Source of the DNA: Malacoraja senta
Taxonomy: Eukaryota
Assembly (NCBI GenBank): GCA_038087875.1
Contig: CM075994.1
Location: 7,752,001-7,816,000, forward strand
DNA: 64,000 bases
Direction of reading: 5' to 3'
The notes under the pieces were generated by a model that made no database searches, was not told the origin of the DNA, and saw only the letters and a program-made list of their open reading frames with translations. Positions 730 through 54,824 of this stretch are shown piece after piece; within the stretch, counting starts at the first letter, position 1; each line of letters starts with the position of its first letter. Position numbers and translations under genes: made by a program.

Positions 730-1962
730 GCATGGATTTACGAAAGGTAAATCATGTCTGACGAATCTTATAGAATTTTTCGAGGATGTAACTAGTAGAG
801 TGGATAGGGGAGAACCAGTGGATGTGTTGTATCTGGACTTTCAGAAGGCTTTCGACAAGGTCCCACATAAGAGATTAGTATACAAACTTAAAGCACACGG
901 TATTGGGGGTTCAGTATTGATGTGGATAGAGAACTGGCTGGCAAACAGGAAGCAAAGAGTAGGAGTAAACGGGTCCTTTTCACAATGGCAGGCAGTGACT
1001 AGTGGGGTACCGCAAGGCTCAGTGCTGGGAACCCAGCTATTTACAATTTATATTAATGATCTGGATGAGGGAATTGAAGGCAACATCTCCAAGTTTGTGG
1101 ATGACACTAAGCTGGGGGGCAGTGTTAGCTGTGAGGAGGATGCTAGGAGACTGCAAGGTGATTTGGATAGGCTGGGTGAGTGGGCAAATGTTTGGCAGAT
1201 GCAGTATAATGTGGATAAATGTAAAGGGGAGATGCAGCGAGACCTGGGTGTCATGGTACACCAGTCATTGAAAGTAGGCATGCAGGTGCAGCAGGCAGTG
1301 AAGAAAACGAATGGTATGTTAGCTTTCATAGCAAAAGGATTTGAGTATAGGAGCAGGGAGGTTCTACTGCAGTTGTACAGGGTCTTGGTGAGACCACACC
1401 TGGAGTATTGCGTACAGTTTTGGTCTCCAAATCTGAGGAAGGACATTATAGCCATAGAGGGAGTGCAGAGAAGGTTCACCAGACTGATTCCTGGAATGTC
1501 AGGACTTTCATATGAAGAAAGACTGGATAGACTTGGCTTATACTCGCTAGAATGTACGAGATTGAGAGGGGATCTTATAGAAATGTACAAAATTCTTATG
1601 GGGTTGGACAGGCTAGATGCAGGAAGATTGTTCCCGATGTTGGGGAAGTACAGGACAAGGGGTCACAGTTTAAGGATAAGGGGGAAATCCTTTAAGACCG
1701 AGATGAGAAAAAACGTTTTCACACAGAGTGGTGAATCTCTGGAACGCTCTGCCACAGAGGGTAGTTGAGGCCAGTTCATTGGCTATATTTAAGAGGGAGT
1801 TAGATGTGGCCCTTGTGGCTAAAGGGATCAGGGGGTATGGAGAGAAGGCAGGTACGGGATACTGAGTTGGATGATCAGCCATGATCATATTGAATGGCGG
1901 TGCAGGCTCGAAGGGCCGAATGGCCTACTCCTGCACCTATTTTCTATGTATCTATGTATCTA
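730..1962 (+). mobile_element. 5'-truncated CR1 LINE (RT domain)
   Basis: YLDFQKAFDKVPH, GVPQGSVLG and KFVDDTKL motifs; internal deletion near 1222; 3' UTR and (CTATGTAT)n tail. Confidence 0.95.
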
Positions 1963-2485: not shown

Positions 2486-5194
2486 GTAAGCATTAAGCAC
2501 TATTTATCTTTTTAAACAAGCCTTTTAATTCATTATATTATTGGTATCTACTATTTTGGTCGTTGTCAGCATTTGCTTAAATTAATTCCACCTAGAAGGC
2601 AAAAGAAACTGCAAATCCTGGAATCTGGAACACAAAGAATGCTGAAAGGATTCAGTCCTTTTATTTTACGTTGTACCTTGGCTGCGCCAATAGACAATAG
2701 GTGCAGGAGTAGGCCATTCAGCCCTTCGAGCCAGCACCGCCATTCAATGTGATCATGGCTGATCATCCACAATCAGTACCCCGTTCCTGCCTTCTCCCCA
2801 TATCCCCTGACTCCGCTATCTTTAAGAGCCCTATCTAGCTCTCTCTTGAAAGTATCCAAAGAACCGGCCTCCACCGCACTCTGAGGTAGAGAATTCCACA
2901 GACTCACAACTCTCTGTGAGAAAAAGTGTTTCCTCGTCTCCGTTCTAAATGGCTTACCCCTTATTCTTAATTTGTGGCCCCTGGTTCTGGAGTCCCCAAA
3001 CTTCGGGAACATGTTTCCTGCCTCTAGCGTGTCCAAACCCTTAACAATCTTATATGTTTCAACAAGATGCCCTCTCATCCTTCTAAACTCCAGAGTGTAC
3101 AAGCCCAGCCGCTCCATTCTCTCAGCATATGACAGTTCCACCATCCTGGGAATTAACCTTGTAAACCTATGCGGCACTCCCTCAATAGCAAGAATGTCAT
3201 TCCTCAAATTTGGACACCAAAACTGCACACAATACTCCAGGTGTGGTCTCACTAGGGCCCTGTACAACTGCAGAAGGACCTTTTTGCTCCTATACTCGAC
3301 TCTTGTTATAAAGGCCAACATGCCATTCGCTTTCTTCACTGCCAGCTGTACCTGCATGCTTACTTTCATAGACTGATGAACAAGGACCCTCAGATCTGGT
3401 TGTACTTCCCCTTTTCCCAACTTGATGCCATTTAGATAGTAATCTGCCTTCCTGTTTTTCATACCAAAGTGGATAACCTCACATTTATGCACATTAAACT
3501 TCATCTGCCATGCATCTGCCCACTCCCCCAACCTGTCCAAGTCACCCTGCATTCTCATAGCATCCTCCTCACAGTTCACACTGCCACCAAGTTTTGTGTC
3601 ATCTCCAAATTTGCTAATGTTACTTTGAATCCCTTCATCCAAATCATTGATGTATATTGTAAATAGCTGCGGTCCCACCACCGAGCCTTGCGGTACCCCA
3701 CTAGTCACTGCCTGCCATTCTGAAAGGGACCTGTTAATCCCTACTTTTTGTTTCCTGTCTGCCAACCAATTTTCTATCCATGTCAGCACTTTACCCCCAA
3801 TATCATGTGCCCTAATTTTGCCCACTAATCTCCTATGTGGGACCTTATCAAATGCTTTCTGAAAGTCCAGGTACACTACATCCACTGACTCTCCCTTGTC
3901 CATTTTCCTAGTTACATCCTCAAAAAATTCCAGAAGATTAGTCGAGCATGATTTCCCCTTCGTAAATCCATGCTGAATCTGACCGATCCTGTTACTGCTA
4001 TCCAAATATGCGGCTATTTCAACTTTTATAATTGACTCCAGCATCTTCCCCACCACCGATGTCAGGCTAACTGGTCGATAATTTCCTGTTTTCTCTCTCC
4101 TGCCTTTCTTAAAGTGGGATAACATTAGCTACCCTCCAATCCACAGGAACTGATCCTGAGTCTATAGAACATTGGAAAATTATCACCAATGCATCCACGA
4201 TTTCTAGAGCCACTTCGTTAAGTACCCTGGGATGCAGACCATCAGGCCCTGGGGATTTATCAGCCTTCAGTCCCATCAGTCTACCCAACACCATTTCCTG
4301 CCTAATGTGGATTTCCTTCAGTTCCTCCGTCACCCCAGACCCTCTGGCCACTTCTATATCAGGAAGATTGTTTGTGTCCTCCTTAGTGAAGACGGATCCA
4401 AAGTACCTGTTCAACTCATCTGCCATTTCCTTGTTCCCCGTAATGAATTCACCTTTTTCGGTCTTCAAAGGTCCAACTTCGGTCTTAATTAATTTTTTCC
4501 ACTTCACATACCTAAAGAAGCTTACTGTCCTCCTTTATATTCTTGGCTAGCTTACCTTCGTACCTCATCTTTTCTCACCGTATTGTCTTTTTAGTTATCT
4601 TCTGTTGCTCTTTAAACATTACCCAATCCTCTTGCTTCCTGCTCATCCTTGCCTCGTTGTACTTCTTCTTTTTTATTTTTATACTGTCCCTGACATCCCT
4701 TGTCAGCCACGGTCGCCCCTTACTCCCCTTAGAATCTTTCTTCCTGCTAGGAATGAACTGATCCTGCACCTTCTGTATTATTCCTAGAAATACCTGCCAT
4801 TGTTGTTCCACTGTCATCCCTGCTAAGGTATCTTTCCAATCAACTTTGGCCAGCTCCTCGCTCATGACCCCATAGTCCCCTTTATACAACTGTAACACTG
4901 ACACCTTCGATCTACCCTTCTACCTCTCCAATTGTAGATTAAACCTGACCATATTATGGTCACTACCTCCTAATGGCTCATTAACCTCAAGTTCCTTTAT
5001 CAAATCTGGTTCATTACATAACACTAAATCCAGAATTGCCTTCTCCCTGGTAGGCTCCAATACAAGCTGCTCTAAGAATCCATCACAAAGGCACTCTACA
5101 AAGTCCCTTTCTTGGGGTCCAGTACCAACCTGATTTTCCTAGTCTACCTGCATGTTGAAATCTCCCATAACAACCATAGCATTACCTTTGCTAC

Positions 5195-5248
5195 GGGGTG
5201 GAAGATTGCAACCTTCACGTGGTCCGCCCTGTTTCGACGAATGCAATC
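5195..5248 (+). ncRNA. Putative minimal HDV-like self-cleaving ribozyme, copy 1
   Basis: P1 GGGGTGG/CCGCCCT, P2 GATTGCA/TGCAATC, P3 ACC/GGT, L3 TTCACGT, rudimentary P4 GTTTCGA, J4/2 CGAA; elements occur in canonical order. Confidence 0.8.
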
Positions 5249-5335
5249 AACCTGGCGTGCACAATCAAGAAAGATCAAATAGAACAAGTTGTCCTACAAC
5301 GTTAGGCTGTGCACGCCATACGCAAGAAGAAGAAG
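5195..5335 (+). mobile_element. Short non-autonomous retroposon with (GAA)n tail and 5' HDV-like ribozyme, copy 1
   Basis: Interrupts the CR1 EN region; 11-bp TSD ACCTTTGCTAC at 5184-5194 and 5336-5346; near-identical copy at 54092-54230 (-). Confidence 0.9.
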
Positions 5336-6030
5336 ACCTTTGCTACATGCCAATTTTAACTCCTGATTCAACTTGCACCATATGTCCAGGCTACTGTTTG
5401 GGGGCCTGTAGATAAGTCCCATTAGGATCTTTTTACCCTTACAATTCCTTAGTTCTATCCATACTGACTCCACATCTCCTGTTTCAATGTCACCCCTTGC
5501 AAGGGACTGAATTTCATTCCTCACCAACAGTGCTACCCCACCCCCTCTGCCCACCTGTCTGTCTTCTCGATAGGAGGTATACCCTTGAATATTCAGTTCC
5601 CAGCCCTGGCCCTCTTGCAGCCATGTCTCTGCAATTCCCACAACAACATACTTGCCAATTTCTAACTGAGCCTCAAGCTCGTCCACTTTATTTCTTATAC
5701 TTTGCGCATTCATATACAACACTTTGACCTCCGTATTCACGTCCCCCCTCACACCCGCTTGCAATTGGCCCTGACCTTACTCTTTTAACCCTTCTCGAAC
5801 TTTCCGTCCCATTAATTTGAGAATCTTTTGTAATTTTTCCTGTACTCACTTCCCCTTCAACTCCATCTTTATTCTCCCAATTTGTCAATCACTCCCCCCC
5901 ACTATTTAGTTTAAACCCACAAGTGTAGCCCTAGCAAACCTGCCTGCCAGAATGTCAGTCCCCCTCCAGTTAAGGTGTAACCTGTCCCTACAGAGCACCC
6001 CTACCCCAATTCGACTAGTTTTGATATATA

Positions 6031-9000
6031 CAGTGCCCTCCATTACGTTTGGGACAAAGACCCATCATTTATTTATTTGTCTCTGTACTCCACAATTTCA
6101 GATTTGTAATAGGAAAAAATCACGTGGTTAAAGTGCACATTGTCAGATTTTAATAAAGGCTATTTTTACACATTTTGGTTTCACCATGTAGAAATTACAG
6201 CAGTGTTTATACATAGCCACCCATTTCAGGGCACCATAATGTTTAGGACACATGTAATTGCTCTGGTGTGTTTAAATGCCTCCTTAATGCAGGTAGAAGA
6301 GAGCTTTCCTCCAATCTTTCCATCTCCTTTGGAAACGTTTATTGCTGTTTATCAACGTGAGGACCAAAGTTGTGCCAATGAAAGTCAAAGAAGCCATTAT
6401 GAGACTGAGAAACAAGAATAACAGTTAGAGACATCAGCCAAACCTTAGGTTTACCAAAATTAACTGTTTGGAACATCATTAAGAACAAAGAGAGCAATGG
6501 TGAACTTACTCATCGCAAAGGGACTGGCAGGCCAAGGAACACTTCCACAGCTGATGACAGAAGAATTCTCTATAGTAAAGAAAAATCCCCAAACACCTAT
6601 CTGACAGATCAGAAACATTCTTCAGGAGTCGGGTGTGGATTTGTCAATGACCACTGTCCACAGAAGATTTCATGAACAGAAATACAGAGGTTACACTGCA
6701 AGATGCAAACCACTGGTTAGCTGTAAAAAGATAGGATGGCCAGGTTACAGTTTGCCAAGAAGTACTTAAAAGAGCAATCACGGTTCTGAACAAAGGTCTT
6801 GTGGACAGATGAGACGAAGATTCACTCGTATCAGAGTGATGGCAAGAGCAAAGTATGGAGGAGAGAAGGAACTGCCCAAGGTCCAAAGCATACCACCTTA
6901 TCTATGAAACACGGTGGTGGGGGTATTATGGCCTGGGCATGTATGGCTGCTGAAGGTACTCTCTCACTTATCCTCATTGATGATACATAGAAACATAGAA
7001 AATAGGTGCAGGAGGAGGCCATTCGGCCCTTTGAGCCTGCACCGCCATTCAATATGATCATGGCTGATCATCCAACCCAGCCACAAGGGCCACATCTAAC
7101 TCCCTCTTAAATATAGCCAATGAACTGGCCTCAACTACCTTCTGTGGCAGAGAATTCCAGAGATTCACCACTCTCTGTGTGAAAAATGTTTTTTTCATCT
7201 CGGTCCTAAAGGATTTCCCCCTAATCCTTAAACCGACCCCTTGTTCTGGACTTCCCCAACATCGGGAACAATCTTCCTGCATCTAGCCTGTCCAACCCGT
7301 TAAGAATTTTGTAAGTTTCTATAAGATCCCCCCTCAATCTTCTAAATTCTAGCGAGTACAAGCCGAGTCTATCCAGTCTTTCTTCATATGAAAGTCCTGA
7401 CATCCCAGGAATCAGTCTGGTGAACCTTCTCTGTACTCCCTCTATGGCAAGAATGTCTTTCCTCAGATTTGGAGACCAAAACTGTACGCAATACTCCAGG
7501 TGTGGTCTCACCAAGACCCTGTACAACTGCAGTAGAACCTCCCTGCTCCTAAACCCAAATCCTTTTGCTATGAATGCTAACATACCATTTGCTTTCTTCA
7601 CTGCCTGCTGCACCTGCATGCCTACTTTCATTGACTGGTGTACCCAGGTCTCGTTGCATCTCCCCTTTTCCTAATCGGCCACCATTCAGATAATAGTCTA
7701 CTTTCCTGTTTTCGCCACCAAAATGGATAACCTCACATTTATCCACATTATACTGCATCTGCCATGCATTTGCCCACTCACCCAGCCTATCCAAGGTCAC
7801 CTTGCAGCCTCCTAGCATCCTCCTCACAGCTAACACTGCCCCCCAGCTTTGTGTCATCTGCAAACTTGGAGATGTTGCATTCAATTCCCTCGTCCAAATC
7901 ATTAATATATATCGTAAATAGCTGGGGTCCCAGCACTGAGCCTTGCTGTACCCCACTAGTCACTGCCTGCCATTCTGAAAAGGACCCGTTTACTCCTACT
8001 CTTTGCTTCCTGTCTGCCAGCCAGTTCTCTATCCAAATCAATACTGAACCCCTAATACTGTGTGCTTTAAGTTTGTATATTAATCTCTTATGTGGGACCT
8101 TGTCAGAAGCCTTCTGAAAGTCCAGATATAACACATCCACTGGTTCTCCCTTATCCACTCTACTGGTTACATCCTCGAAAAATTCTATAAGATTCGTCAG
8201 ACATGATTTACCTTTCAGAAATCCATGCTGACTTTGTCCAATGATTTCACCACTTTCCAAATGTGCTGCTATCCCATCTTTAATAACTGACTCTTTAATA
8301 GCAGTTTTCCCATTACCGATGTTAGACTAACTGGTCTGTAATTCCCCGATTTCTCTCCCTCCCTTTTTAAAAAGTGGGGTTACATTAGCTTCCCTCCAAT
8401 CCTCAGGAACTACTCCAGAATCTAAAGAGTTTTGAAAAATTATCACTAATGCATCCACTATTTCTGGGGCTACTTCCTTAAGTACTCTGGGATGCAGCCT
8501 ATCTGGCCCTGGGGATTTATCGGCCTTTAATCCATTCAATTTACCTAACACCACTTCCCGGCTAACCTGCATTTCACTTAGTTCCTCCATCTCATTTGAT
8601 CCCCGGTCCCCTGCTATTTCCGGCAGATTATTTATGTCTTCCTTAGTGAAGACAGAACCAAAGTAGTTATTCAATTGGTCTGCCATGTCCTTGTTCCCCA
8701 TGATCAATTCACTTGTTTCTGGCTGCAAGGGACCTATATTTGTTTTAACTAATCTTTTTCTCTTCACATATCTATAAAAACTTTTGCAGTCAGTTTTTAT
8801 GTTCCCTGCCAATTTTCTTTCATAATCTATTTTCCCTTTCCTAATTAAGCCCTTTGTCCTCCTCTGCTGGACTCTGAATTTCTCCCAGTCCTCTGGTAGG
8901 CTGCTTTTTCTGGCTAATTTGTACGCTTCATCTTTTGTTGATAGTAATAGCATAATGAATTCTGAAGTGTATGGACACATCCTATCTGCTCAAGTTCAAA

Positions 9001-13707: not shown

Positions 13708-13930
13708 ACGGAGGGGTTTGGAGGGGAGGGGACCCGGGTGGAGCTGTTTGAAGGTGCATGGGTGTTTGTGGAAGGGTTTGGAGGGGAGGGGACTGGAGTG
13801 GAGGAGATCGGGGTGGAGGGGTTTAGAGGTGAGGGGACCGGAGTAGAGGGATTTGGAGATATAGAGACTGGCGTGGATGGGTTTGGAGGGAAGGAGACCA
13901 TCACAAAGGGGTTTGGAAGGGAGTGAACCA
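13708..13930. repeat. 30-bp G-rich minisatellite
   Basis: About 7 diverged units like GAGGGGTTTGGAGGGGAGGGGACCGGAGTG. Confidence 0.8.
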
Positions 13931-14164: not shown

Positions 14165-14855
14165 TAGACTCCTTAGGGGGCAACACAGTCCCTCCCGGCC
14201 TGTAGGTGGCAGCACTGACCCTCCTAGCCAGTATGGGGCAGCATCGTCCCTCCCAGCCTGCAGTGGGCAGCATTGTCCCTCCTCCAGGCCTGTAGGGGAC
14301 AGCGCTCTCCCTCCTCCTCATGGCCTGTAGGGGGCAGCACAGTCCCTCCCAGCCTGTAAGGGGCAGCACTTCCCCTCCTGGTCTCTAGGTGGCAGCACTG
14401 CCCCCCCTCCTCCCAGCCTGTAGGTGGCAGCACTGTCCCTCCTCCCGGGCTGTAGGGGGCAGCACTGTCCCTCCTCCCGGCCTCTGGGGGGCAGCATTGT
14501 CCCTCTTCTACCCAATCTGCAGGTGGCAGCACTGCACCTCCTCCTCCCGGCCTTTAGTGGGCAGCACTGTCCCTCATCTCGGCCTGTAGGAGGCAGCACT
14601 AACCCTCCCAGCCTGTAGGGGGCAGCTCTGTTCATCCTCCTCCTGGCCTGCTGGGGGCAGCTCTGTTCCTCCTCCCGGCCTGCGGGGGCAGCACTGTTCC
14701 TCCTCCCAGATTGTAGGGGGCAGCTCTGTTCCTCCTAGCTCGTAGGGGGCAATACTGTCCCTCCCAGCCTCTAGGTGGCAGCACTGTTCCTCCTCCCAGC
14801 CAGTAGGGGGCAGTACTGTCCCTCCTGGCCATTAGGTGGCAGTCCAGTCCCTCCT
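14165..14855. repeat. ~32-bp GC-rich minisatellite
   Basis: About 20 diverged units like TGTAGGGGGCAGCACTGTCCCTCCTCCCGGCC. Confidence 0.92.
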
Positions 14856-15161: not shown

Positions 15162-15327
15162 TTAAGATTTAGTTTTTTGGGCTAAGGGATTCGAGGGATA
15201 TGGGGATGAAGCCGGAACGGGAGCACTGATTGTGGATGATCAGCCATGATCATATTGAAGGGCCGAATAGCCTACTGCTGCATCTATTTTCTATGTTTCT
15301 ATGTTTATTGTCACATGTAACTCGGTA

Positions 15328-18244: not shown

Positions 18245-18645
18245 AAAAAAAGATAGTGCTGGAGTAATTCAACAGATCAGGCAGCATCTCTGGAGAACAT
18301 AGATAGGTGATGTTTTGGCTGGAGACACTTCTTCAGACTGATGGTGATTGGGGGAGGGGAGGACAGAGCCTACCCAGTAACAGGTAGATACAGATGAGGA
18401 AGGGGGGGTTGATAGCCAGATGGTTGGACAAAGTCCAGAGATGCAAAGACAGAAGGATTGGGGAGTTGTACATTGTGAAGCTCGTGGAAGAATGTAGGGA
18501 AGGGGGAGGGGGGAAATAGGTGCTAGTCCAGGTGGGGGGGGGGGGGGGGTTGGAGGCTTTGATTGTTACCTAAAATTGGAAAATTCAATGTTCATACCAT
18601 TGGGTTGTAGCCCACCCACAAGGAGTATGGGGTGTTCCTCCAATC
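18245..18645 (-). mobile_element. Penelope-like element fragment
   Basis: Similar to 38390-38930: end of the GIY-YIG coding region plus terminal repeat. Confidence 0.65.
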
Positions 18646-20139
18646 AGATAAATTGTCAGGGGAAGAAGAAACTTGACGGTAAAATTCATGCCCACATCTG
18701 AGCTTTGTTTTTAATCACTATAAATGATGATTATTGAAATCTGTCAATCTCATTTCCTAGTTTAGTTTCACTGAATAAATACAATCAAATGGTACAATAG
18801 TTGTTTTTCCCCCAAATTTTCTCTAGATTTCAGGATTTAAATATTTCTAAAGATACTAAACTTTTTTGCTATCATGGAATTAAAGTGTACATCTGAAATG
18901 AGAGGTGTAAAACATTCTCTGTCAGCCCTTAATCTTTTAAAAAAATGTTTAGATCCACTCTTTAAAGCTTCCTCCATTGTCAATGTGCAGGTTTGTCTCA
19001 AAGCCAAAAATTGAAATTGTAATGGTTCTTTTGGATTTTATTTTGGGGGGGGGGGGGGGGGGTAGGGTAATAGAAAAAGCGTTCAGGCAGGATAGGATGG
19101 GAAAAGTAGAAAGCAAATACTATTAATTCACGACTGCCCGATAGATGCCAGAGCATAATTTCCATAATAGGATTTGAATGTTCAAACTGAATTGTTTAGT
19201 ATCAAAAGAGAGAGAATTTAATTGTAGTAATCCAAGTAGTTTACAGATTGCCAAATGATGGGAAGGAAATTCTTGGGTTCGGGTTTAATTCATAGCAACT
19301 TTCATTCAATGTAAATTGTACATTGATCAATATCCAATGTATATCACTACGCTGTTTCATAAATGACCTTGCAATTCACTGTTTCAAGAATGAGAAATAG
19401 GGTAATTCTTTATAGATTGTGATTTGTGCAATACTTATCCTGTTATTGATTGCAAGCAATTTCATGGGAAAGATGCTGAAAATATTCAGGCATATCTCAA
19501 AGTATGTTACATTGTCTCTATCTGAAATTATTAGAAAAGTACAGATGGAATACCTATTATCTGCAGACCTTGCCTACACAGTAAGTAAAATATTATCCAA
19601 ATCATCTAAGAATAATATAGACATTGACCAACAAAAATGCTTGGATACAGTGGAGGAAAAGATATGACCTAAAAAAAGGGGGATAACCTTGTGTCTTCCC
19701 AATGCTTTTGGCGGGAGAGTGTATTAAACTTCACTCATCCAAGGTGGGCATCAAGCTGACAAAAACCATGAAAAGTGCTGATTTGAGTACAAGAGCACGG
19801 TGAGTGATTGTGAGCTAATATATGTCTTTAAAGGAATGATAGTATTTGTAAGGTAAAGATTTAAAATATGAATCTTTTTCAAAGTTTAAAAGGAAAGCAT
19901 TTTACTTCAAATTGTAAATTGTATTCTGCTGCCTTCAGTAAATGACTAGCTGTAACTGGTTGACTTAGTTTCCTCTTCTCGGTTATACGTTTTCTTAGCT
20001 CATCAATGCCGTAGTAGGTATTGGGTTTAATGACAGTACATTAATAGTACACACTTCAGTAAATGCAGAACATTTATCATGGTAATCCTCCAGCTGACCA
20101 TATCATAAGCAATGTCAACTTTAATTTGGGTTCTTGATC

Positions 20140-22455: not shown

Positions 22456-25322
22456 ATGGAGTTTATTTCGATAATATGAGGTGTTTCTTCTGGAAACACA
22501 ATGAATTAAGTCGCATGGCAAGTGGGACTGGCTTGTTTTAGCAATTTGGTCAGCATGGTTGAGTTGGGTCAAAGGCCCCGTTTCCATGCTAAATAGCTCT
22601 ATGTCTATGTCCTTACCACTTTAATCTCTAATCCAAGAAATGAATTATCTTCACCCCACCCCACCCTCTCCAATTATTTGAATTTAAGAACCAGGAATCA
22701 GCTCTGTGCAGTTTTCATTTACTCCAGATAGAATAGCAAAATGATTAAATTGCCAGAATAAATAGTCAGGAGTTCAGAACCATTGATAAGTTCAAAATCC
22801 ATTATGGCAAGTTGGAATTTAAATCTGAATCATCGATAAAGTCTAAAATCTTTTTTAAATGCTGATGTCTGTCACAGCAACTGAAGAACGACCAAATTTC
22901 TGATTAAACACATTGAGTTCACTGACGTCATTCAGAGAAAGAAATTTGCCATCGATACCCAATCTGTTCAGCAGGTAGCTCTCAACTGTCTCATCAATTC
23001 AAGTTCAATTAGGAATGGGCAATAAATTCAGCATTGCTATCTGCTGAATACATGAATGCCAAAAGACTCCCTCACCTTGATCTTTTATGTCCTTGTCCTC
23101 AAGATTGTCTGATCCACTTGGATGCCCCCCCCCCCCCCCCCCCTCAGCTCCCTCACCTTGATCTTTTATGTCCTTGTCCTTTTTGGTCTTGAACTATAAC
23201 TGCTGTAGAAATTACCAACATTTCTGGTTGAGATTCTGTGTCAGGATCAGGTCTCAACCACAAAATAGTTCCTACCACTCCCCCCAACCCATATGCTGCC
23301 TCAGCCATTGAATTCCCACAGCATTTTGTATCTTGCTCCAGATTTCAGTATTTCTTGTGTCTGCCTTCTGATCTGACTGCTGTAGTTATTCCAATGAAAC
23401 ATCCTTTGTGATTTGCAGTTTTGATGTTTTATCTCTTTAAATGCTAGTTTTGATCGTGATCAACCACATTATGTCTTCAAATGCCATATACTATCAACTT
23501 TGGTGGGACTGTTCATATTGGTTCCATTATTACTCAAAGAATGCCTCTGATCACTCTTCCAGCCCCACCACCCTGGCTTCAATTTTCTGAAAGTCTATTC
23601 ATAGCTGCCGCTTCCATTATCTGTTTGGTGTCCAACAATGACTGCTGATATACAAGATTAGAATTCCCCTGTGATGCCAACCTCCACCCTTTAAGCCTTA
23701 TCGTGGTACTGCATTATTTCTAATCACTACTTTCATTTTCAAAAATGATACCTTGTTCCATCTTTAATGTTGCTCCATTTAACACTACTTTATTGTCAAA
23801 ACTTGCTTTGCCTGCTGCCTCCAACATTGCCTATTACCAACCTGTGCCCTCTGTGGAATCAACCCGTCCAACATTCTGCTGCACATTTTCTGTTTTGTAC
23901 AATAATCAGTCCCCTCCTTACCAAGTTCGTATAGATTATAGCTCGCAAAAACAGAAATTTAAAGTTCTAATCTTTTTTATTTCAATTTGATACCGCTATT
24001 TCTCTTCCCATCTCCATATATGCACCCATGCAAAAAACAAAAATTTTCCTATATTAATATGTAATGCATTTTTAAGTTATTTTGTGCTAAGAAATATCAA
24101 AGGCACCATATAAATGCACTTCCTGCCATTTTAACCAAGATTTTTTAATCCATATTTTTTCCCTATTGCTTGGTATCTATATGATCCTTTCATCTGTGCC
24201 CGGCCAATTAAAAGGTCCTTGAAGAACATCATTCTGCTCTGGGTTGTATGAAGTCCAAATGCAACACGTTTTAAAGCAGTGGTATGTTCCTGAACTATTT
24301 TCTAGCTAATGATGTAGCATTCAAGTTATGTTCCATTTCAGTTTTTATAAGCCACCAATCAAGCCCTTCTCAGCCACTTTTAACGTAGATAGAACAGTGC
24401 AGCACAGGAAAGGTTCTTCATTCAACAATGTGTGCTCTGTCAATTCTCTGCCCGTACCTGATCCATATCCCCCCCAGACCCTGCATATCCATCTATAAAC
24501 CTCATAAATGCCACTGGCCCCTGTTGCATTCACCACCATCCTTGGCAGCAGTTTCAAGGCAAGTACTACTCAGTTTACAAACAACATTCATTGCACATCT
24601 TCAACATTTCTCACTCTGACCCTAAAACTATGCCCACTAGTCTTAGATTTTTCTACCCTGGGAAAAACATTCTGAGTCATTTAATATACTTCTACCAGAT
24701 TCTATCATAATTTAATATACTTCTACCAGATTACCCCATAATCTCTGAATCTCCAGAAGAAACAATCCAAGTTTGTCCAACCTTTCCTTGTAGCTAATAT
24801 CCTCTAATTCAGGCAGCATTCTAGTAAACCATTTCTACACCCAATCATTCAAAGATACTTTATTGTCACATGTACAATGCTTTGTAAGTGCAATGCTTTG
24901 TTTTACATAAAACCGGTAAAATCATACAGCAGTCCTCACCTTGGCAGTACACAAGAACCACCATGTTTCTGGCACCAACAAAGTTACGAAGGTTCACCAA
25001 ATAGTCCTATCTTCTCCCCACAAGGTTCACCCTTCATTCTTGGCGGCCTCCTGCCGGGTGGCTCGGCAACCCTCCTCGCTCTCCCCTCTGCACTCGATGG
25101 TCAACCCTTGTCCACAGTGGGCGCGCTGGACCTATCGGGTGGGGTCCTTGGTCGAGCGGTGGACGAGCCGGTCCTGCTGGTGGTTTTGGCCACGGCTCAC
25201 CAGAATACTCCCGCCACATGGCTTCCAGGATACTCCATATCCATACCGTAATGGGGTGACTAGACTGCACACAATACTCCAAATGTGGCCGAACCAAAGT
25301 TGTATAAAGCTACAACATGACT

Positions 25323-32098: not shown

Positions 32099-33145
32099 AA
32101 GAGTAGGAGTAAACGGGTCCTTTTCAGAATGGCAGGCAGTGACTAGTGGGGTACCGGAAGGCTCAGTGCAGGGACCCCAGCTATTTACAATATATATTAA
32201 TGATTTGGACGAGGGAATTGAATGCAACATCTCCAAGTTTGCGGATGACACGAAGCTGGGGGGCAGTGTTAGCTGTGAGGAGGGTGCTAGGAGGCTGCAA
32301 GATGACTTGGATAGGCTGGGTGAGTGGGCAAATGCATGGCAGATGCAGTATAATGTGGATAAATGTGAGGTTATCCACTTTGGTGGCAAAAACAGGAAAG
32401 TGGACTATTACCTGAATGGTGGCCGATTAGGAAAAGGGGAGATGCAACGAGACCTGGGTGTCATGGTACACTAGTCATTGAAAGTAGGCATGGAGGTGCA
32501 GCAGGCAGTGAAGAAAGCGAATGGTATGTTAGCATTCATAGCAAAAGGATTTCAGTATCGGAGCAGGAAGGTTCTACTGCAGTTGTACAGGGTCTTTGTG
32601 AGGCGACACCTGGAGTATTGCGTACAGTTTTGGTCTCCTAATCTGAGGAAGGACATTCTTGCCATTGAGGGAGTACAGAGAAGGCTCACCAGACTGATTC
32701 CTGGGATGTCAGGACTTTCATATGAAGAAAGACTGGATAGACTCGGCTTGTACTCGCTAGAATTTAGAAGATTGAGGGGGGATCTTATAGAAACTTACAA
32801 AATTATTAAGGGGTTGGACAGGCTAGATGCAGGAAGATTGTTCCCGATGTTGGGGAAGTCCAGAACAAGGGGTCACAATGAGAAAAACATGTTTTACACA
32901 GAGAGTGATGAATCTCTGGAATTCTCTGTCACAGAATGTAGTTGTGGCCAGTTCATTGGCTATATTTAAGAGGGAGTTAGATGTAGCCCTTGTGGCTAAA
33001 GGGATCAGGGGGTATGGAGAGAAAGCAGGTACAGGATACTGAGTTGGATGATCAGCCATGATCATATTGAATGGCGGTGCAGGCTCGAAGGGCCGAATGG
33101 CCTACTCCTGCACCTATTTTCTATGTTTCTATGTCTATGTTTCTA
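32099..33145 (+). mobile_element. 5'-truncated CR1 LINE specific to unit B
   Basis: RT motifs; TGTGTA on both sides; empty site CTCTTGTGTACCTTGT at ~26969-26984 in unit A. Confidence 0.93.
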
Positions 33146-33713
33146 TGTGTACCTTGTACTGCTATTAAGTTGAAATGAATGGGACCCTCCTCTTCACATG
33201 TGAATAAAGATAACTACTTCTGATATTAGTCTCTGTAATACTTTATTGGAATAGACGCACAGAGTCTTTTGCCCAGAGTAGGGGAATTGAGAATCTAAAG
33301 ACATTGGTTTGAGATGAGGGGGGAAAGGGTTAAAGAAAAGTCAGCCAGAAAGGCCAAAGGAGGAGAAGGACTTGGGTTAGGAAAGACTGCACTTTAACTT
33401 TCTTCAGCCTGTACTTTAACTAACCTATGTACAGCTTCTGTCACAGAAATACTTGTATCAATTTGGCTGATAAAGGTGTGTGGATCTTTAAGATGCCTCC
33501 ATGTTATTCCAGGAACGGCAGTGTCATAATTTGTAGGCCATTGTTGCATGGTAAAGCAATTTAACCTTTTTGAATTTTGAGAGCAAAAGACAATGTGATC
33601 TTACAGATTTCATAGTCTTGTTTAGCCCATTGTGTGTCAGCTCTGTCAATCTCACTTGTCCTACTATCCTGTCTTCGCCTTAGCACTGCAATGTTGTTTC
33701 CTTTCCAGTACTT

Positions 33714-51967: not shown

Positions 51968-54091
51968 GTGTAGAGAGTAAAGGAGAGGGGAGAGTACGCA
52001 GCCTTGTGGTGCTCCTGTGTTTGCGGGTCTGAGATGTGCTTTCCCAGCCTCACATGCTGCTTTCTGCCTGTCAGGAAGTTGGTGATCCACTGACAGAGGG
52101 GTTCAGGCACAGTCAACTGGGAGAGTTTGGAGTGTAGTAGCTCTGGCACAGTGGTGTTGAATGCAGAGCTAAAATCCACAAACAAAATCCTTGCATAGGT
52201 CCACTGGCGGTCTAGGTGCTGGAGGATGAAGTGCAGGCCTAGGTTGACTGCGTCATCCATAGATCTATTGGCCCGGTATGCCAACTGCAGGGGGTCCAGC
52301 AGGGGGTTTGTGATATTTTTCAGGTGGGCCAGCACAAGTCTTTCAAGGGTTTTCATGATTACAGTGCGACAGGCTTGTAGTCATTAAGACCAGTAATCCT
52401 TGGCTTTTTGGCTACAGGAACAATAGTGGAGACTTTGAAACAGGCAGGGACAGTGCAGGTTTGCAGGGATTGATTAAAAAAGTCTGTGTAGACTGGTGCC
52501 AGTATTTCGGCACCGAGCTTGAGGGTAGAGAGGGAAACGTTGTCTGGTCCTGGAGATTTCCGGCTTTTCTCTCTCCTGAATAGCTTTTCCTCCTGCTCAA
52601 TTTGATGGAGAAATGGCCAGACTGATGTTGGGCAGCAAGGAGGGGGTGGGTAGTGGACGAGGGTCCAGTCTTTGCAGACTGGAGTCAGGCTGTTAGTAGG
52701 TGTGAAGTGGTGATTGGGGTTATGTTTCTGTCTATCAAACCTGTAGTAGAACTCGTTCAGGTCGTTGGTCAGCTGACGATTGTCCAAGGAGCGAGGGAGA
52801 GGTGGTTATCCTCTTTGAGCTGACGATTGCTTGCAAGCCCTTCCACACTGAAGATGAGTCATTAGCTGAGAACTTGTTCCTCAACTTCTCAGATTACCTT
52901 TCCTTCGCAGCTCTGATTCCTCTTCTCAGCTTGTACTTGGCCTGCCTGTAGAGGTCTGCATCCTTGCTCCAGTAGGCCTCGTCTTTAGACTGGCAGAGCT
53001 GTGCGAGTTCTGCTGTAAACCAGGGCTTGTCGTTGTTGAACCAGATTCGGGTTCTAGTGGGAATGCAATTGTCCTCACAAAAGCTGACATATGATGTCAT
53101 GATGTCTGTATATTAATCAAGGCTTGTGGTTGCTTCCCTGAACACATTCCAATCAGTGCAGTCAAAGCAGGACTGTAGGTTTCGAATGCCCTTGCTTGTC
53201 CACTTTTTCCATTGTTCTGACCACAGGCTTAGCAGATTTTAGTTTCTGCCTGTAGGTTGGAATAAGGTGAACTAAACAATGATCAGAGAGACCCAGAGCC
53301 GCATGGGGAACAGAGCGATATGCGTTCTTAATTGAAGTATAACAATGATGGAGTGTTCTCTCCCCTCTGGTGGGGCAGGTAATGTGATGTCTGTATTTTG
53401 GAAGCTCTCGGCTGAGGTTAGCCTTGTTAAAATCCCCCAAAACGATGACCATCGACTCCACAATCATGGACCATGGACCATATACTTCGACCTTCATCCA
53501 AAGAAAACAATCCAAGTATATCTAATCCCCTTTCAGCTAGTATTCTCTAATCCAGGCAGCATCCTGCTAAACCTCTTCTGCACCCACTTCAAACCTTCCA
53601 CATCCTGCAATGCAGTGATCAGAACTGCATATAGTACCCCAATGTGGCCTCAGCAAGGCTTATACATTTGCAACACAACATCCTAACTTTTATACACCAT
53701 GCTCTGACCAAGAACCCCTAGATCCCTCTGTACTTCAATGCTGCTAAGGGATATACCATTTACTGTATAATTTCACCTTACATTTAACCTCCCATTGTGT
53801 AACAACACACATTAGTTTGGATTAAACTCCATTATTTATCTGTTCATATCTCCAACCAAATCTACATCCTGCTGTTTCTTTTGTGAATCTTCCTCACTAA
53901 CCACAACTCCATTATTTTATCATGTAAACCAGTCAATCCATCTACATTTTCATTGTTTTATTCCCTCTTTTACCTCCCCTTCTTCCACCCATATCACTTC
54001 CTCTGGCTTTAGCCTTTGGAGATACAGCGTGGATACAGGCCCTTCAGCCCACCTCATCTGCACACACCAGCTGTAACTAACTCTGTAAACT

Positions 54092-54230
54092 TCTTCTTCT
54101 TGCGTATGGCGTGCACAGCCTAAAGTTGTAGGACAACTTGTTCTATTTGATCTTACTTGATTGTGCACGCCAGGTTGATTGCATTCGTCGAAACAGGGTG
54201 GACCACATGAAGGTTGCAATCTCCCACCCC
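54092..54230 (-). mobile_element. Short non-autonomous retroposon with (GAA)n tail and 5' HDV-like ribozyme, copy 2
   Basis: TSD ACTCTGTAAACT at 54080-54091 and 54231-54242; inserted in the V-SINE; near-identical to 5195-5335. Confidence 0.9.
54177..54230 (-). ncRNA. Putative minimal HDV-like self-cleaving ribozyme, copy 2
   Basis: P1 GGGGTGG/CCACCCT (G1-U wobble, otherwise Watson-Crick), P2 GATTGCA/TGCAATC, P3 ACC/GGT, L3 TTCATGT, J4/2 CGAA. Confidence 0.8.
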
Positions 54231-54824
54231 ACTCTGTAAACTAACACTATCCTACACACTAGGGGCAATTTTTTTTACAACTTACCAAAGTAAATTAGCG
54301 TATAACCCTGTACGCCTTTGGAATATGGGAGGACACCGGAGCACCCGGATCAACGCACACGGTCACAGGGAGAACAAATAAACTGCGTGCAGATAGCACC
54401 TGGGTCAAGATCGAACCTGGGTCTCTGACTCTGCAGCAACTCTACCGCTGAGCCAACATTTCACTTTTTTTTCCTTATCTGATACTCTTTGTCTCCTTTT
54501 CACCTCCAGCCTTTGTCACTTGTCACCCATCTGCTAATCATGCTACCATCACTTGTATCCACCTATAATTTGCTCGGCTTTTCCCATCTCCACCCCTCTT
54601 TTCCAGTTTTGTTATTCCGAGTATCTTGCTGTCTGTCCATTTCCTCCACAGATGCTGCCTGGCCCATTGAGTTCCTCTAGCACTTTGTGATTTGCATAAG
54701 ATTCCAGCATCTGCAGTTTCTTGTGTCTCAATATTATTATTACTCTACTTCTTCCTTACATATTTATTCCCATTTTACATGTGCCAAGGCACTGTAGTTT
54801 ATTAACTTCAATCAAATAGATTGA

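What the first reader, a model, noticed from the sequence alone, without database searches (positions are those of the whole stretch)
5195..5248. Minimal 54-nt HDV-like ribozyme forming the exact 5' end of a ~140-bp SINE-like retroposon
Seen: all HDV-fold elements occur in order: P1 5195-5201 GGGGTGG pairing 5224-5230 CCGCCCT (G1-U wobble), P2 5204-5210 GATTGCA pairing 5242-5248 TGCAATC, P3 ACC/GGT closing a 7-nt L3 TTCACGT, and J4/2 CGAA with C5238 at the catalytic C75-equivalent position. P4 is reduced to GTTTCGA and only one P1.1 C-G pair is possible. The predicted scissile bond is exactly the TSD/element boundary. Established: HDV-like ribozymes process 5' ends of R2, RTE and Ingi/L1Tc retrotransposons; CPEB3 has a single P1.1 pair; P4 is dispensable. 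Inference: a retroposon with no tRNA-derived head that is released from host transcripts by self-cleavage and mobilised in trans. I cannot tell whether this family is already catalogued.
Basis: partly seen in the sequence, partly recalled or inferred. Interest (0 to 1): 0.92.

Follow-up and report, generated by a model that had tools for sequence, protein, structure and literature searches.

The report
Ribozyme-headed short retroposon family
A 142-base mobile element present in thousands of copies begins exactly with a very small hepatitis-delta-type self-cutting RNA fold, which it shares with a larger autonomous element in the same genome; this kind of arrangement is known elsewhere, but this version is unusually small.

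Summary
Window 5195-5336 (+) is a 142-bp retroposon with a 10-bp target-site duplication and an (AAG)n tail. A second copy lies at 54091-54230 (-). The genome holds about 8,400-8,800 close copies, and nearly all sampled copies start at the same G.

The first 54 nt fit every element of the HDV-like fold. A simple descriptor hits only the two copy heads in the window, against 0.23 chance hits per simulated window.

The decisive evidence is a relative. The same genome has an (AAG)n-tailed endonuclease/reverse-transcriptase LINE. That LINE, and its roughly 215-bp internally deleted derivatives, start with a 67-nt ribozyme with a full P4. This ribozyme matches Rfam RF02682 at E=6.6e-4, below the gathering score. 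Between the two ribozymes the core is conserved, and 7 base pairs in P1 and P2 changed on both sides yet stay paired. A model built only from the LINE type finds the SINE heads.

Self-cleavage and trans-mobilisation are inferred, not shown, because no raw RNA reads were available. Ribozyme-headed LINEs and non-autonomous derivatives are already known (R2 SIDEs, L1Tc/NARTc). I rate this a new variant: a P4-less head, a body not derived from the LINE, and very high copy number.

The parts
5185..5194 (+). left target-site duplication CCTTTGCTAC
   Evidence: identical 10-mer at 5337-5346
5195..5336 (+). whole 142-bp non-autonomous retroposon (copy 1)
   Evidence: 40 of 40 scored genome matches are 97-100% identical, and most span 1-142
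5195..5248 (+). 54-nt HDV-like ribozyme head; predicted cleavage 5' of G5195
5195..5201 (+). P1 5' strand GGGGTGG (pairs with 5224-5230)
   Evidence: covariation with the LINE-type GGGGCTC/GAGCCCT
5204..5210 (+). P2 5' strand GATTGCA (pairs with 5242-5248)
   Evidence: 4 of 7 pairs changed on both sides relative to the LINE type
5211..5223 (+). P3 ACC/GGT closing L3 TTCACGT; C5216 is the P1.1 partner of G5231
   Evidence: the C and G columns are invariant in 13 of 13 rows
5224..5230 (+). P1 3' strand CCGCCCT
   Evidence: common variants G5226A (U-A) and C5225U (G.U) keep pairing
5231..5237 (+). G5231 (P1.1) plus UUUCGA, the remnant in place of P4
   Evidence: 13 alignment columns, the LINE-type P4 (CTGAC CTCA GTCAG) and its flanks, are absent here
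5238..5241 (+). J4/2 CGAA with C5238 at the catalytic-C position
   Evidence: aligned to the C of the J4/2 in RF02682 and in model R1
5242..5248 (+). P2 3' strand TGCAATC
5249..5323 (+). body: long hairpin (5253-5262 GGCGTGCACA with 5309-5318 TGTGCACGCC, plus an inner GTTGT/ACAAC hairpin) ending in ACGC
   Evidence: MFE -22.2 kcal/mol, z -3.6, 0 of 200 shuffles as stable. No similarity to the LINE 3' end beyond ACGC(AAG)n
5324..5336 (+). (AAG)n tail
5337..5346 (+). right target-site duplication CCTTTGCTAC
54091..54230 (-). second copy of the retroposon (ribozyme 54177-54230), flanked by GTTTACAGAGT at 54231-54241 and 54080-54090

Best explanation
Window 5195-5336 is one copy of a young, high-copy, non-autonomous non-LTR retroposon. 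Its head is a minimal, P4-less HDV-like self-cleaving ribozyme. I take the element to have no promoter of its own. When a copy is read through by host transcription, the 54-nt head folds into the nested double pseudoknot (P1, P2, P3, one P1.1 pair). C5238 then catalyses cleavage immediately 5' of G5195. This gives an RNA whose first base is the first base of every genomic copy. The RNA is then copied into new sites by target-primed reverse transcription, using the endonuclease/reverse transcriptase of an (AAG)n-tailed LINE in the same genome. That LINE starts with a homologous, fuller ribozyme and ends in the same ACGC(AAG)n. Shown: family structure, fixed 5' end, fit to the fold, homology and covariation with the LINE ribozyme, and the existence of the LINE and its internally deleted derivatives. 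Inferred: catalytic activity, read-through transcription, and which LINE supplies the enzyme.
For: 1. Family. All 40 scored genome matches are 97-100% identical. By eye, all 30 fetched copies have target-site duplications, and 28 of 30 start GGGG at position 1 (the other two start AGGG and GAGG). The ribozyme 35-mer has 8,359 genome matches and a 3' 35-mer has 8,786, each at <=3 mismatches, so most copies are full length.
2. Same boundary elsewhere. In four public runs of other coded organisms, unrelated flanks begin exactly at 5195 in 313, 123, 71 and 8 contigs.
3. Fold. The descriptor hits only the two copy heads in the window, against 0.23 chance hits per simulated window.
4. Relative. The LINE-type ribozyme 30-mer has 422 genome matches at <=1 mismatch. 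Of 20 fetched, 18 are short elements made of the ribozyme, the LINE 5' UTR and ORF start, and the LINE 3' end with (AAG)n. A g precedes GGGCTC in 17 of 20, giving the head GGGGCTC. RF02682 aligns to it end to end from that G, at 32.8 bits and E=6.6e-4. L087 and L108 show ribozyme, 5' UTR, an APE endonuclease ORF, RT and the ACGC(AAG)n end in one element.
5. Covariation. On 6 SINE-type and 7 LINE-type ribozymes, 97.4% of cells are paired. Seven pairs changed on both sides (3 in P1, 4 in P2). Controls with the partner slid by 1-3 columns give 30-41% paired and 0-1 such pairs.
6. Independent model. A covariance model built only from 12 LINE-type ribozymes finds 5195-5248 as the only hit in 64 kb (24.8 bits, E 2.7e-5). 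With filters off it finds 54177-54230 at 20.5 bits.
7. Tolerated variants. Variants at >=10% of contig depth inside the ribozyme fall only at 5226 (U.G to U-A), 5236 (loop remnant) and 5239 (J4/2 G to A or U). None falls in P2, P3, L3 or at C5238.
Against: No cleavage was observed. All public runs found were assembled contigs, which cannot show RNA 5' ends.
Both ribozymes score below Rfam's gathering score of 44 bits: 14.4 for the SINE type and 32.8 for the LINE type.
The covariation rests on only two lineages, that is one divergence, and I derived the structure from these sequences.
Within the SINE family there is almost no informative variation, and most recurrent changes are at CpG sites.
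The density of common variants is about the same in the ribozyme (3 places in 54 nt) as in the body.
P4 is reduced to 6 nt and P1.1 to one pair, so activity could be weak.
The SINE body shares nothing with the LINE 3' end beyond ACGC(AAG)n. No LINE carrying the SINE's own 3' sequence or its own ribozyme variant was found. The partner is therefore assigned on thin grounds.
About 5% fewer 5' than 3' matches, and 12 sampled copies with their own duplications starting near position 89-91, show that 5'-truncated copies exist.
Confidence: 0.72

Rival explanations
1. The head is a decayed relic of the LINE ribozyme that no longer cleaves. The fixed 5' end would come from a transcription start, either an internal RNA polymerase II or III promoter overlapping the head (as Pr77 overlaps L1TcRz in trypanosomes) or from the fold acting only as a protein-binding or stabilising structure.
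For: P4 is lost and P1.1 is a single pair. The Rfam score is only 14.4 bits. No RNA data exist. The L1Tc/NARTc abstract (PMC3383444) reports one 77-nt sequence that is both promoter and ribozyme. A weak B-box-like string GTTTCGACGAA is present; the B-box consensus is recalled and was not tested.
Against: After diverging from the LINE type, P1 and P2 kept full pairing through 7 two-sided changes. The core (P3, L3 C, the G after P1, CGAA) stayed the same, which a relic would not need. Amplifying subfamilies changed G5239 but not C5238 in the same CpG. Minimal P4-less HDV-like ribozymes are described as a class (PMC10879173, introduction passage). No tRNA, 5S or 7SL similarity was found.
Confidence: 0.17
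2. The element is an ordinary RNA polymerase III SINE whose head derives from a tRNA or another small RNA. The HDV-like fit would then be incidental.
For: It has SINE-like size, copy number and target-site duplications.
Against: Rfam at E<=10 over 5100-5450 gave only RF02682 and one weak snoRNA match outside the head. ARAGORN found no tRNA. The head is homologous to the 5' end of a LINE.
Confidence: 0.04
3. The fit to the HDV fold is a chance resemblance in a repeat.
For: The lax descriptor has a non-zero false-positive rate: 19 hits in 84 simulated windows.
Against: The chance rate is about 2e-6 per position, yet the hit sits exactly on the element's first base in both window copies. Covariation with a second ribozyme also argues against chance, and that second ribozyme independently matches RF02682 at E=6.6e-4.
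Confidence: 0.01

Closest known systems
R2 SIDEs (short internally deleted elements) of Drosophila (Eickbush & Eickbush 2012, PMC3414825, abstract read)
   Same: Both are non-autonomous non-LTR elements made of a 5' HDV-like ribozyme joined to a 3' end that a LINE's reverse transcriptase can use. In both, the 5' end is set by self-cleavage of a co-transcript. The roughly 215-bp family found here (L088-L107) is a direct analogue.
   Different: R2 SIDEs insert site-specifically in rDNA and are rare. The element here is dispersed, with about 8,400-8,800 close copies. Its body is not derived from the LINE, and its ribozyme has diverged and lost P4.
L1Tc / NARTc and SIDER elements of trypanosomatids (PMC3185411, PMC3383444, PMC4035085; abstracts read)
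   Same: An autonomous LINE and its short non-autonomous companions share an HDV-like ribozyme in their first ~77 nt, and the elements are dispersed in the genome.
   Different: The host lineage and LINE family are different. There the same sequence is also an internal promoter, and nothing of that kind has been tested here. Here the SINE and LINE ribozymes differ by compensated changes rather than being identical.
HDV-like ribozymes of RTE and baggins LINEs (Ruminski et al. 2011, known to me only through passages of the review PMC6765202; the paper itself is not held)
   Same: These are promoter-less LINEs released from read-through transcripts by a 5' HDV-like ribozyme. The LINE here has an RTE-like build: a single ORF with N-terminal APE endonuclease and RT, about 25 nt of 3' UTR, a trinucleotide-repeat tail, and relatives of about 1,000 aa on 3.3-3.5-kb contigs.
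   Different: Clade membership of the LINE was not tested by phylogeny.
Minimal (P4-less) HDV-like ribozymes and theta ribozymes (Riccitelli 2014 as cited in, and Kienbeck 2024, PMC10879173, introduction passage read)
   Same: The double-pseudoknot core is kept with P4 missing, and the overall size is in the 50-60-nt range.
   Different: Those come from metagenomes and gut phages, next to tRNAs. This one heads a eukaryotic retroposon and can be traced to a P4-bearing relative in the same genome.
Rfam RF02682, HDV-like ribozyme of Faecalibacterium prausnitzii
   Same: It is the best-matching curated model. P3 and L3 are nearly the same: ACCUUCACGUGGU here against consensus aCCUCUaCGUGGu.
   Different: Both ribozymes score below the gathering score, and the bacterial context is unrelated. 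This is similarity of fold class, not membership of that family.
Hammerhead-bearing SINE-like elements of Schistosoma (review passage, PMC6765202)
   Same: A short non-autonomous retroposon carries a self-cleaving ribozyme.
   Different: The ribozyme class is different. Those elements are reported as RNA polymerase III transcribed and often tandem.

Membership tests
HDV-like (delta) self-cleaving ribozymes | Nested double pseudoknot with strands in the order P1-P2-P3-L3-P3'-P1'-(P4)-J4/2-P2' | tested here: met
   Read directly. The descriptor hit only at 5195(+) and 54230(-), with a chance rate of 0.23 per window.
HDV-like (delta) self-cleaving ribozymes | 7-bp P1 starting at the cleavage-site G, with a G.U first pair (feature recalled from the HDV literature) | tested here: met
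   G5195.U5230 followed by 6 more pairs. The same G.U first pair occurs in the LINE type.
HDV-like (delta) self-cleaving ribozymes | Helices supported by compensatory change | tested here: met
   Seven pairs changed on both sides (3 in P1, 4 in P2) and 97.4% of cells paired, against 30-41% in slid controls. Only two lineages are involved.
HDV-like (delta) self-cleaving ribozymes | 3-bp P3 with a ~7-nt L3, and a P1.1 pair between L3 and the base after P1 | tested here: met
   ACC/GGT with L3 TTCACGT. C5216-G5231 is the only possible P1.1 pair, and both columns are invariant in 13 of 13 rows.
HDV-like (delta) self-cleaving ribozymes | Catalytic cytosine at the start of J4/2 | tested here: inconclusive
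   C5238 aligns to the J4/2 C of RF02682 and of model R1. No variant at >=10% of depth occurs there, while its CpG partner G5239 varies. Its chemical role was not tested.
HDV-like (delta) self-cleaving ribozymes | Score at or above a curated Rfam gathering threshold | tested here: not met
   There were no hits at gathering thresholds. RF02682 scored 14.4 bits (E=3) for the SINE head and 32.8 bits (E=6.6e-4) for the LINE type, against a cut-off of 44. Rfam models do not score the P2 pseudoknot.
HDV-like (delta) self-cleaving ribozymes | Site-specific self-cleavage giving a 5'-OH product | not testable with these tools
   Only assembled contigs of public runs were available.
Minimal (P4-less) HDV-like ribozymes | P4 domain absent while the core is kept | tested here: met
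   Six nt (UUUCGA) lie between G5231 and C5238. The P4-region columns of the LINE type are gaps in all 6 SINE rows.
SIDE-type internally deleted LINE derivatives | 5' ribozyme of an autonomous LINE joined to that LINE's own 3' end | tested here: not met
   The head is homologous to the LINE ribozyme. The body has no similarity to the LINE 3' 160 nt beyond ACGC(AAG)n: local score 7 against 8.4 +/- 1.5 in shuffles. The separate ~215-bp family (L088-L107) does meet this test.
LINE-dependent non-autonomous retroposons (SINE in the broad sense) | Short, non-coding, dispersed, with target-site duplications and a LINE-type 3' tail | tested here: met
   The tail and the preceding ACGC are shared with the LINE.
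Classical RNA polymerase III SINEs (tRNA-, 5S- or 7SL-derived head) | Head derived from a small RNA with an internal polymerase III promoter | tested here: not met
   There was no tRNA, 5S or 7SL match at E<=10, and ARAGORN found none.
RTE clade (for the partner LINE) | Phylogenetic placement of the RT within RTE | not tested
   Only the architecture was seen. The named relatives were uninformative.

The most novel reading that the evidence does not exclude
This would be a class of SINE whose only head is a 54-nt active ribozyme. It would have no promoter and no small-RNA ancestry, and would rely wholly on host read-through transcription plus self-cleavage. Even so it reached about 10^4 copies and spread across several species. 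Its head would be the smallest natural eukaryotic HDV-like ribozyme, caught next to its P4-bearing ancestor, and would give a eukaryotic retroposon origin for at least some minimal HDV-like ribozymes. The family may also be uncatalogued.
Probability: 0.45. Interest if true: 0.65.

Novelty: new variant of a known kind. Interest (0 to 1): 0.55.

Why it matters
If the head cleaves, the family shows three things.
- A promoter-less retroposon can reach thousands of copies with nothing but a 54-nt ribozyme and a LINE-compatible tail.
- The genome offers a natural before-and-after pair, a 67-nt ribozyme with P4 and a 54-nt one without it. Seven compensated pairs separate them, which makes the pair useful for studying what the HDV fold minimally needs.
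- A recent paper states that the origin and function of minimal P4-less HDV-like ribozymes remain to be determined (PMC10879173, introduction). This family gives them one concrete biological setting.

Thousands of self-cleaving sites scattered through transcribed regions could also cut host transcripts. That can be tested with RNA data.

Tried and rejected
1. Looking for a LINE that carries the SINE's own ribozyme or its own 3' end, using three patterns:
- Ribozyme end followed by non-SINE sequence gave 31 hits, all SINE copies with indels in positions 55-85.
- The 3' hairpin preceded by non-SINE sequence gave 25 hits, either variant copies or 5'-truncated copies with their own duplications.
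- The last 21 nt preceded by non-SINE sequence gave 16 hits, all small variants.
None was a LINE.

2. A probe for a third ribozyme lineage (A or T at the first P1' position) gave 8 hits, all mutated copies of the two known kinds. This is a narrow probe and does not exclude other lineages.

3. RNA evidence. All 23 listed runs were Logan contigs and none was raw reads. The four runs laid give presence and boundaries only. Contigs that start at 5195 are repeat-boundary breaks and say nothing about RNA ends.

4. The LINE 5' end in L087 could not be defined. That locus belongs to a larger unit repeated on many small contigs: 40 of 40 scored hits span all 261 nt, including non-LINE flank, and two copies on one contig lie 9,640 bp apart.

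5. The clade and host taxon of the LINE were not resolved. The 141 homologues were mostly unnamed and the Atlas clusters were uninformative.

6. Earlier notes of this scan returned nothing.

7. Literature.
- The full texts of Ruminski 2011, Webb 2009 and Webb & Luptak 2011 are not held. Their content is cited only through review passages.
- A search combining HDV-like ribozyme with cartilaginous-fish terms was badly framed and showed nothing relevant in its 15 listed rows.
- No held paper prints either ribozyme core sequence.
- Dfam and Repbase could not be consulted, so I cannot say whether the family is catalogued.

8. The single-strand MFE of the ribozymes is not better than shuffles. This is uninformative for a pseudoknot.

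Full report
**What is at the coordinates**

- P1 is GGGGTGG (5195-5201) with CCGCCCT (5224-5230). It has seven pairs, with G1.U first.
- J1/2 is AA.
- P2 is GATTGCA (5204-5210) with TGCAATC (5242-5248).
- P3 is ACC/GGT around the 7-nt L3 TTCACGT.
- After P1 comes G5231, which can pair only with C5216 (a single P1.1 pair).
- Six nt, UUUCGA, stand in place of P4.
- J4/2 is CGAA and begins with C5238.

The element runs from 5195 to 5336 and ends in (AAG)n. It is flanked by CCTTTGCTAC at 5185-5194 and 5337-5346, so the predicted scissile bond is the boundary of the insertion. A second copy with 3 mismatches in the head lies at 54091-54230 on the minus strand. It has its own 11-bp duplication, GTTTACAGAGT.

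**Is it more than chance?**

Rfam at gathering thresholds finds nothing in the window. At E<=10 the only ribozyme match is RF02682, the HDV-like ribozyme of F. prausnitzii. It aligns end to end to exactly 5195-5248, but at only 14.4 bits and E=3. The plain MFE of the 54 nt is no better than shuffles, which is expected for a pseudoknot.

I wrote a descriptor requiring the following:
- a 7-bp P1 starting with G;
- a 6-8-bp P2;
- a 3-bp Watson-Crick P3 and a 6-9-nt L3 containing a C;
- a G after P1;
- a C two or three nt before the P2 3' strand.

It hits the window twice, at 5195(+) and 54230(-), and not at all in the reversed sequence. In 84 simulated windows it gave 19 hits, about 0.23 per window or 2e-6 per position. 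A hit on the very first base of a retroposon, twice, is not chance.

**The family**

The window belongs to a 1.94-Gb eukaryotic assembly.
- All 40 scored matches to the 142 bp are 97-100% identical, and most cover positions 1-142.
- In 30 fetched loci, every copy has a recognisable target-site duplication of roughly 8-13 bp (judged by eye). Twenty-eight of 30 begin GGGG at position 1.
- A 35-mer of the ribozyme has 8,359 matches and a 35-mer of the 3' part has 8,786, each at <=3 mismatches. There are therefore thousands of copies, most of them full length.
- 5'-truncated copies with their own duplications also exist. Twelve of 25 loci picked by a 3' pattern start near position 89-91.
- Older copies differ mainly by indels in positions 55-85.
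- Across 76 ribozyme-bearing copies the head is nearly invariant. The recurrent changes are at CpG sites and keep pairing: C5225U gives G.U and G5226A gives U-A. About 30 of these 76 were selected by an exact match to the ribozyme's 3' end, so this sample is biased.

**Other organisms**

Twenty public runs from 11 studies hold the stretch, including coded organisms A to D. All are assembled contigs. I laid four runs at >=85% likeness. They gave 16,183, 3,968, 1,240 and 133 contig pieces on the element. Unrelated flanks begin exactly at 5195 in 313, 123, 71 and 8 contigs. The element boundary is therefore the same elsewhere.

Variants reaching 10% of contig depth inside the ribozyme are G5226A, G5236A and G5239A/U. 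None lies in P2, P3, L3, the P1 5' strand or at C5238. In the body both members of the CpG at 5256/5257 vary, whereas in the CpG at 5238/5239 only the G does. This is consistent with source genes tolerating changes only at permissive positions. It is not a strong test, because depth is not copy number and the density of variable places is about the same in head and body.

**The relative that decides the matter**

A stray (AAG)n-ended fragment in one locus led to a repeat ending in ...AACCTCTGCTGCCTCAAACGC(AAG)n. It has 314 genome matches to a 27-mer at <=2 mismatches. Upstream of that end lies the C-terminal part of a reverse transcriptase, with the stop codon about 25 nt before the tail.

The 5' region of this LINE, just upstream of an APE-type endonuclease ORF, reads as a complete HDV-like ribozyme. 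A 30-mer of it has 422 matches at <=1 mismatch. I fetched 20 of these:
- Eighteen are short elements made of the ribozyme, the LINE 5' UTR, the first codons of the ORF, and the LINE 3' end with (AAG)n. Target-site duplications were recognisable by eye in the copies I examined.
- Fourteen of the 18 share one deletion junction. Four have other junctions.
- Two of the 20 (L096, L098) do not reach a tail within the stretch fetched.
- These elements are the counterpart of R2 SIDEs.
- In 17 of 20 a g precedes GGGCTC, so the head is GGGGCTC.

The ribozyme layout is GGGGCTC-AT-GTTGTCG-ACC-TCCCCGT-GGT-GAGCCCT-G-TCAA-CTGAC-CTCA-GTCAG-G-CGAA-CGACAAC. RF02682 aligns to it end to end from that first G, at 32.8 bits and E=6.6e-4. 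This is still below the gathering score of 44.

One locus (L108) holds ribozyme, endonuclease, RT and the ACGC(AAG)n end in a single copy. That copy is interrupted by insertions and has no clear duplication.

**Comparison of the two ribozymes**

An alignment of 6 SINE-type and 7 LINE-type ribozymes needs one gap, covering the LINE-type P4 region. The conserved parts are P3, the L3 frame T-C-CGT, the G after P1, CCCTGT and CGAA.

Counting the pseudoknotted structure on this alignment gives 97.4% of cells paired and 7 pairs changed on both sides:
- in P1: G-C to U-A, G-C to C-G, and U.G/U-A to C-G;
- in P2: A-U to U-A, U-A to G-C, G-C to U-A, and A-U to G-C.

Sliding the 3' partners by 1-3 columns gives 30-41% paired and 0-1 such pairs. 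Two caveats apply. There are only two lineages, and I derived the structure from these sequences.

As an independent check I built a covariance model from 12 LINE-type ribozymes only, using nested helices only. It finds 5195-5248 as the only hit in the 64-kb window (24.8 bits, E 2.7e-5, whole model). With filters off it finds 54177-54230 at 20.5 bits.

**What is not shared**

The SINE body (5249-5323) folds into a long hairpin that is more stable than all 200 shuffles. It has no similarity to the last 160 nt of the LINE apart from ACGC(AAG)n. I found no LINE with the SINE's own 3' end or its own ribozyme variant. The 142-bp element is therefore not a simple internal deletion of this LINE. It is a ribozyme head related to the LINE's, joined to an unrelated hairpin body and the LINE's terminal motif. 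Assigning this LINE as the enzyme donor is an inference from the tail, the head and the similar duplications.

**Mechanism**

The best reading has three steps:
- read-through transcription;
- self-cleavage 5' of G1 by the minimal ribozyme;
- target-primed reverse transcription in trans by the (AAG)n LINE.

The first and third steps and the catalysis itself are inferred. No raw RNA reads were available to look for 5' ends at G1.

The main rival is that the head is a non-cleaving relic and the 5' end is set by a promoter, as in the dual Pr77/L1TcRz case. It is weakened by the maintained pairing through seven compensated changes, but it is not excluded. A small-RNA-derived RNA polymerase III head is not supported.

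**Comparison with what is known**

HDV-like ribozymes at the 5' ends of R2, L1Tc, baggins and RTE elements are established, as are non-autonomous derivatives (R2 SIDEs, NARTc). So is the observation of hundreds of intergenic HDV-like ribozymes with conserved downstream and varying upstream sequence. My sources are passages of the review PMC6765202 and the abstracts of PMC3414825, PMC3383444 and PMC4035085. The primary papers by Ruminski and Webb are not held.

Minimal P4-less HDV-like ribozymes are known from metagenomes and gut phages, with origin and function described as undetermined (PMC10879173, introduction).

Twelve held papers contain all three terms 'HDV-like ribozyme', 'SINE' and 'retrotransposon'. 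By title and abstract start, none describes this family. No held paper prints either core sequence. I could not consult Dfam or Repbase.

**Verdict**

The kind is known. This case is a new variant: a P4-less 54-nt head, a body not derived from the LINE, and about 8,400-8,800 close copies shared among several organisms. It sits beside its fuller LINE-borne relative and a second, SIDE-like family. Interest 0.55.

Noticed in passing
L088-L107 (own genome, e.g. L100:80-300): A second non-autonomous family of about 215 bp. It consists of a 67-nt HDV-like ribozyme with full P4, the LINE 5' UTR and first codons, and the LINE 3' end with (AAG)n; target-site duplications were recognisable by eye in the copies I examined. 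At least five different internal-deletion junctions occur among 18 copies.
   Followed up: partly
L086:5356-6508, L087 (minus strand) 3521-660, L108 (minus strand): An autonomous LINE with a 5' HDV-like ribozyme, an N-terminal APE endonuclease, an RT, a Cys/His motif near the C-terminus, about 25 nt of 3' UTR and an (AAG)n tail. The RT search gave 4,031 first-look candidates. The build is RTE-like, but the clade was not tested.
   Followed up: partly
L087 and many small contigs: The LINE 5' region in L087 sits in a larger unit repeated at 96-100% identity on many small contigs. Two copies lie 9,640 bp apart on one contig, which suggests a tandem or segmental array containing LINE fragments.
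   Followed up: no
window 2773-5764 (-): The retroposon at 5195 is inserted, in opposite orientation, into another LINE. That LINE has an RT ORF at 2773-4125 and an endonuclease ORF at 5294-5764. The window holds at least six further RT-bearing ORFs.
   Followed up: partly
window 1943-1962, 6985-7005, 15283-15306, 33114-33148: Short arrays of an 8-nt unit (TCTATGTT or its complement) lie near LINE ORFs. They look like the 3' tails of a different, 8-mer-tailed LINE family; the likeness to CR1-type tails is recalled and was not tested.
   Followed up: no
window 14174-14855: A tandem array of about 21 copies of a 29-32-nt GC-rich unit (70-72% matches). Related 30-nt repeats lie at 13710-13899.
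   Followed up: no
window 55696-56613 (+): The C-terminal part of a LINE RT ORF matches Pfam PF09004 (ALKBH8_N) at E 1e-14.
   Followed up: no
L040, L052, L076 and others: Some copies of the 142-bp element carry runs of extra G in front of G1, and a few start with A. This may reflect untemplated additions at the RNA 5' end during reverse transcription.
   Followed up: no
window 18534-18549, 19045-19062, 23125-23143: Homopolymer runs of 16-19 G or C.
   Followed up: no
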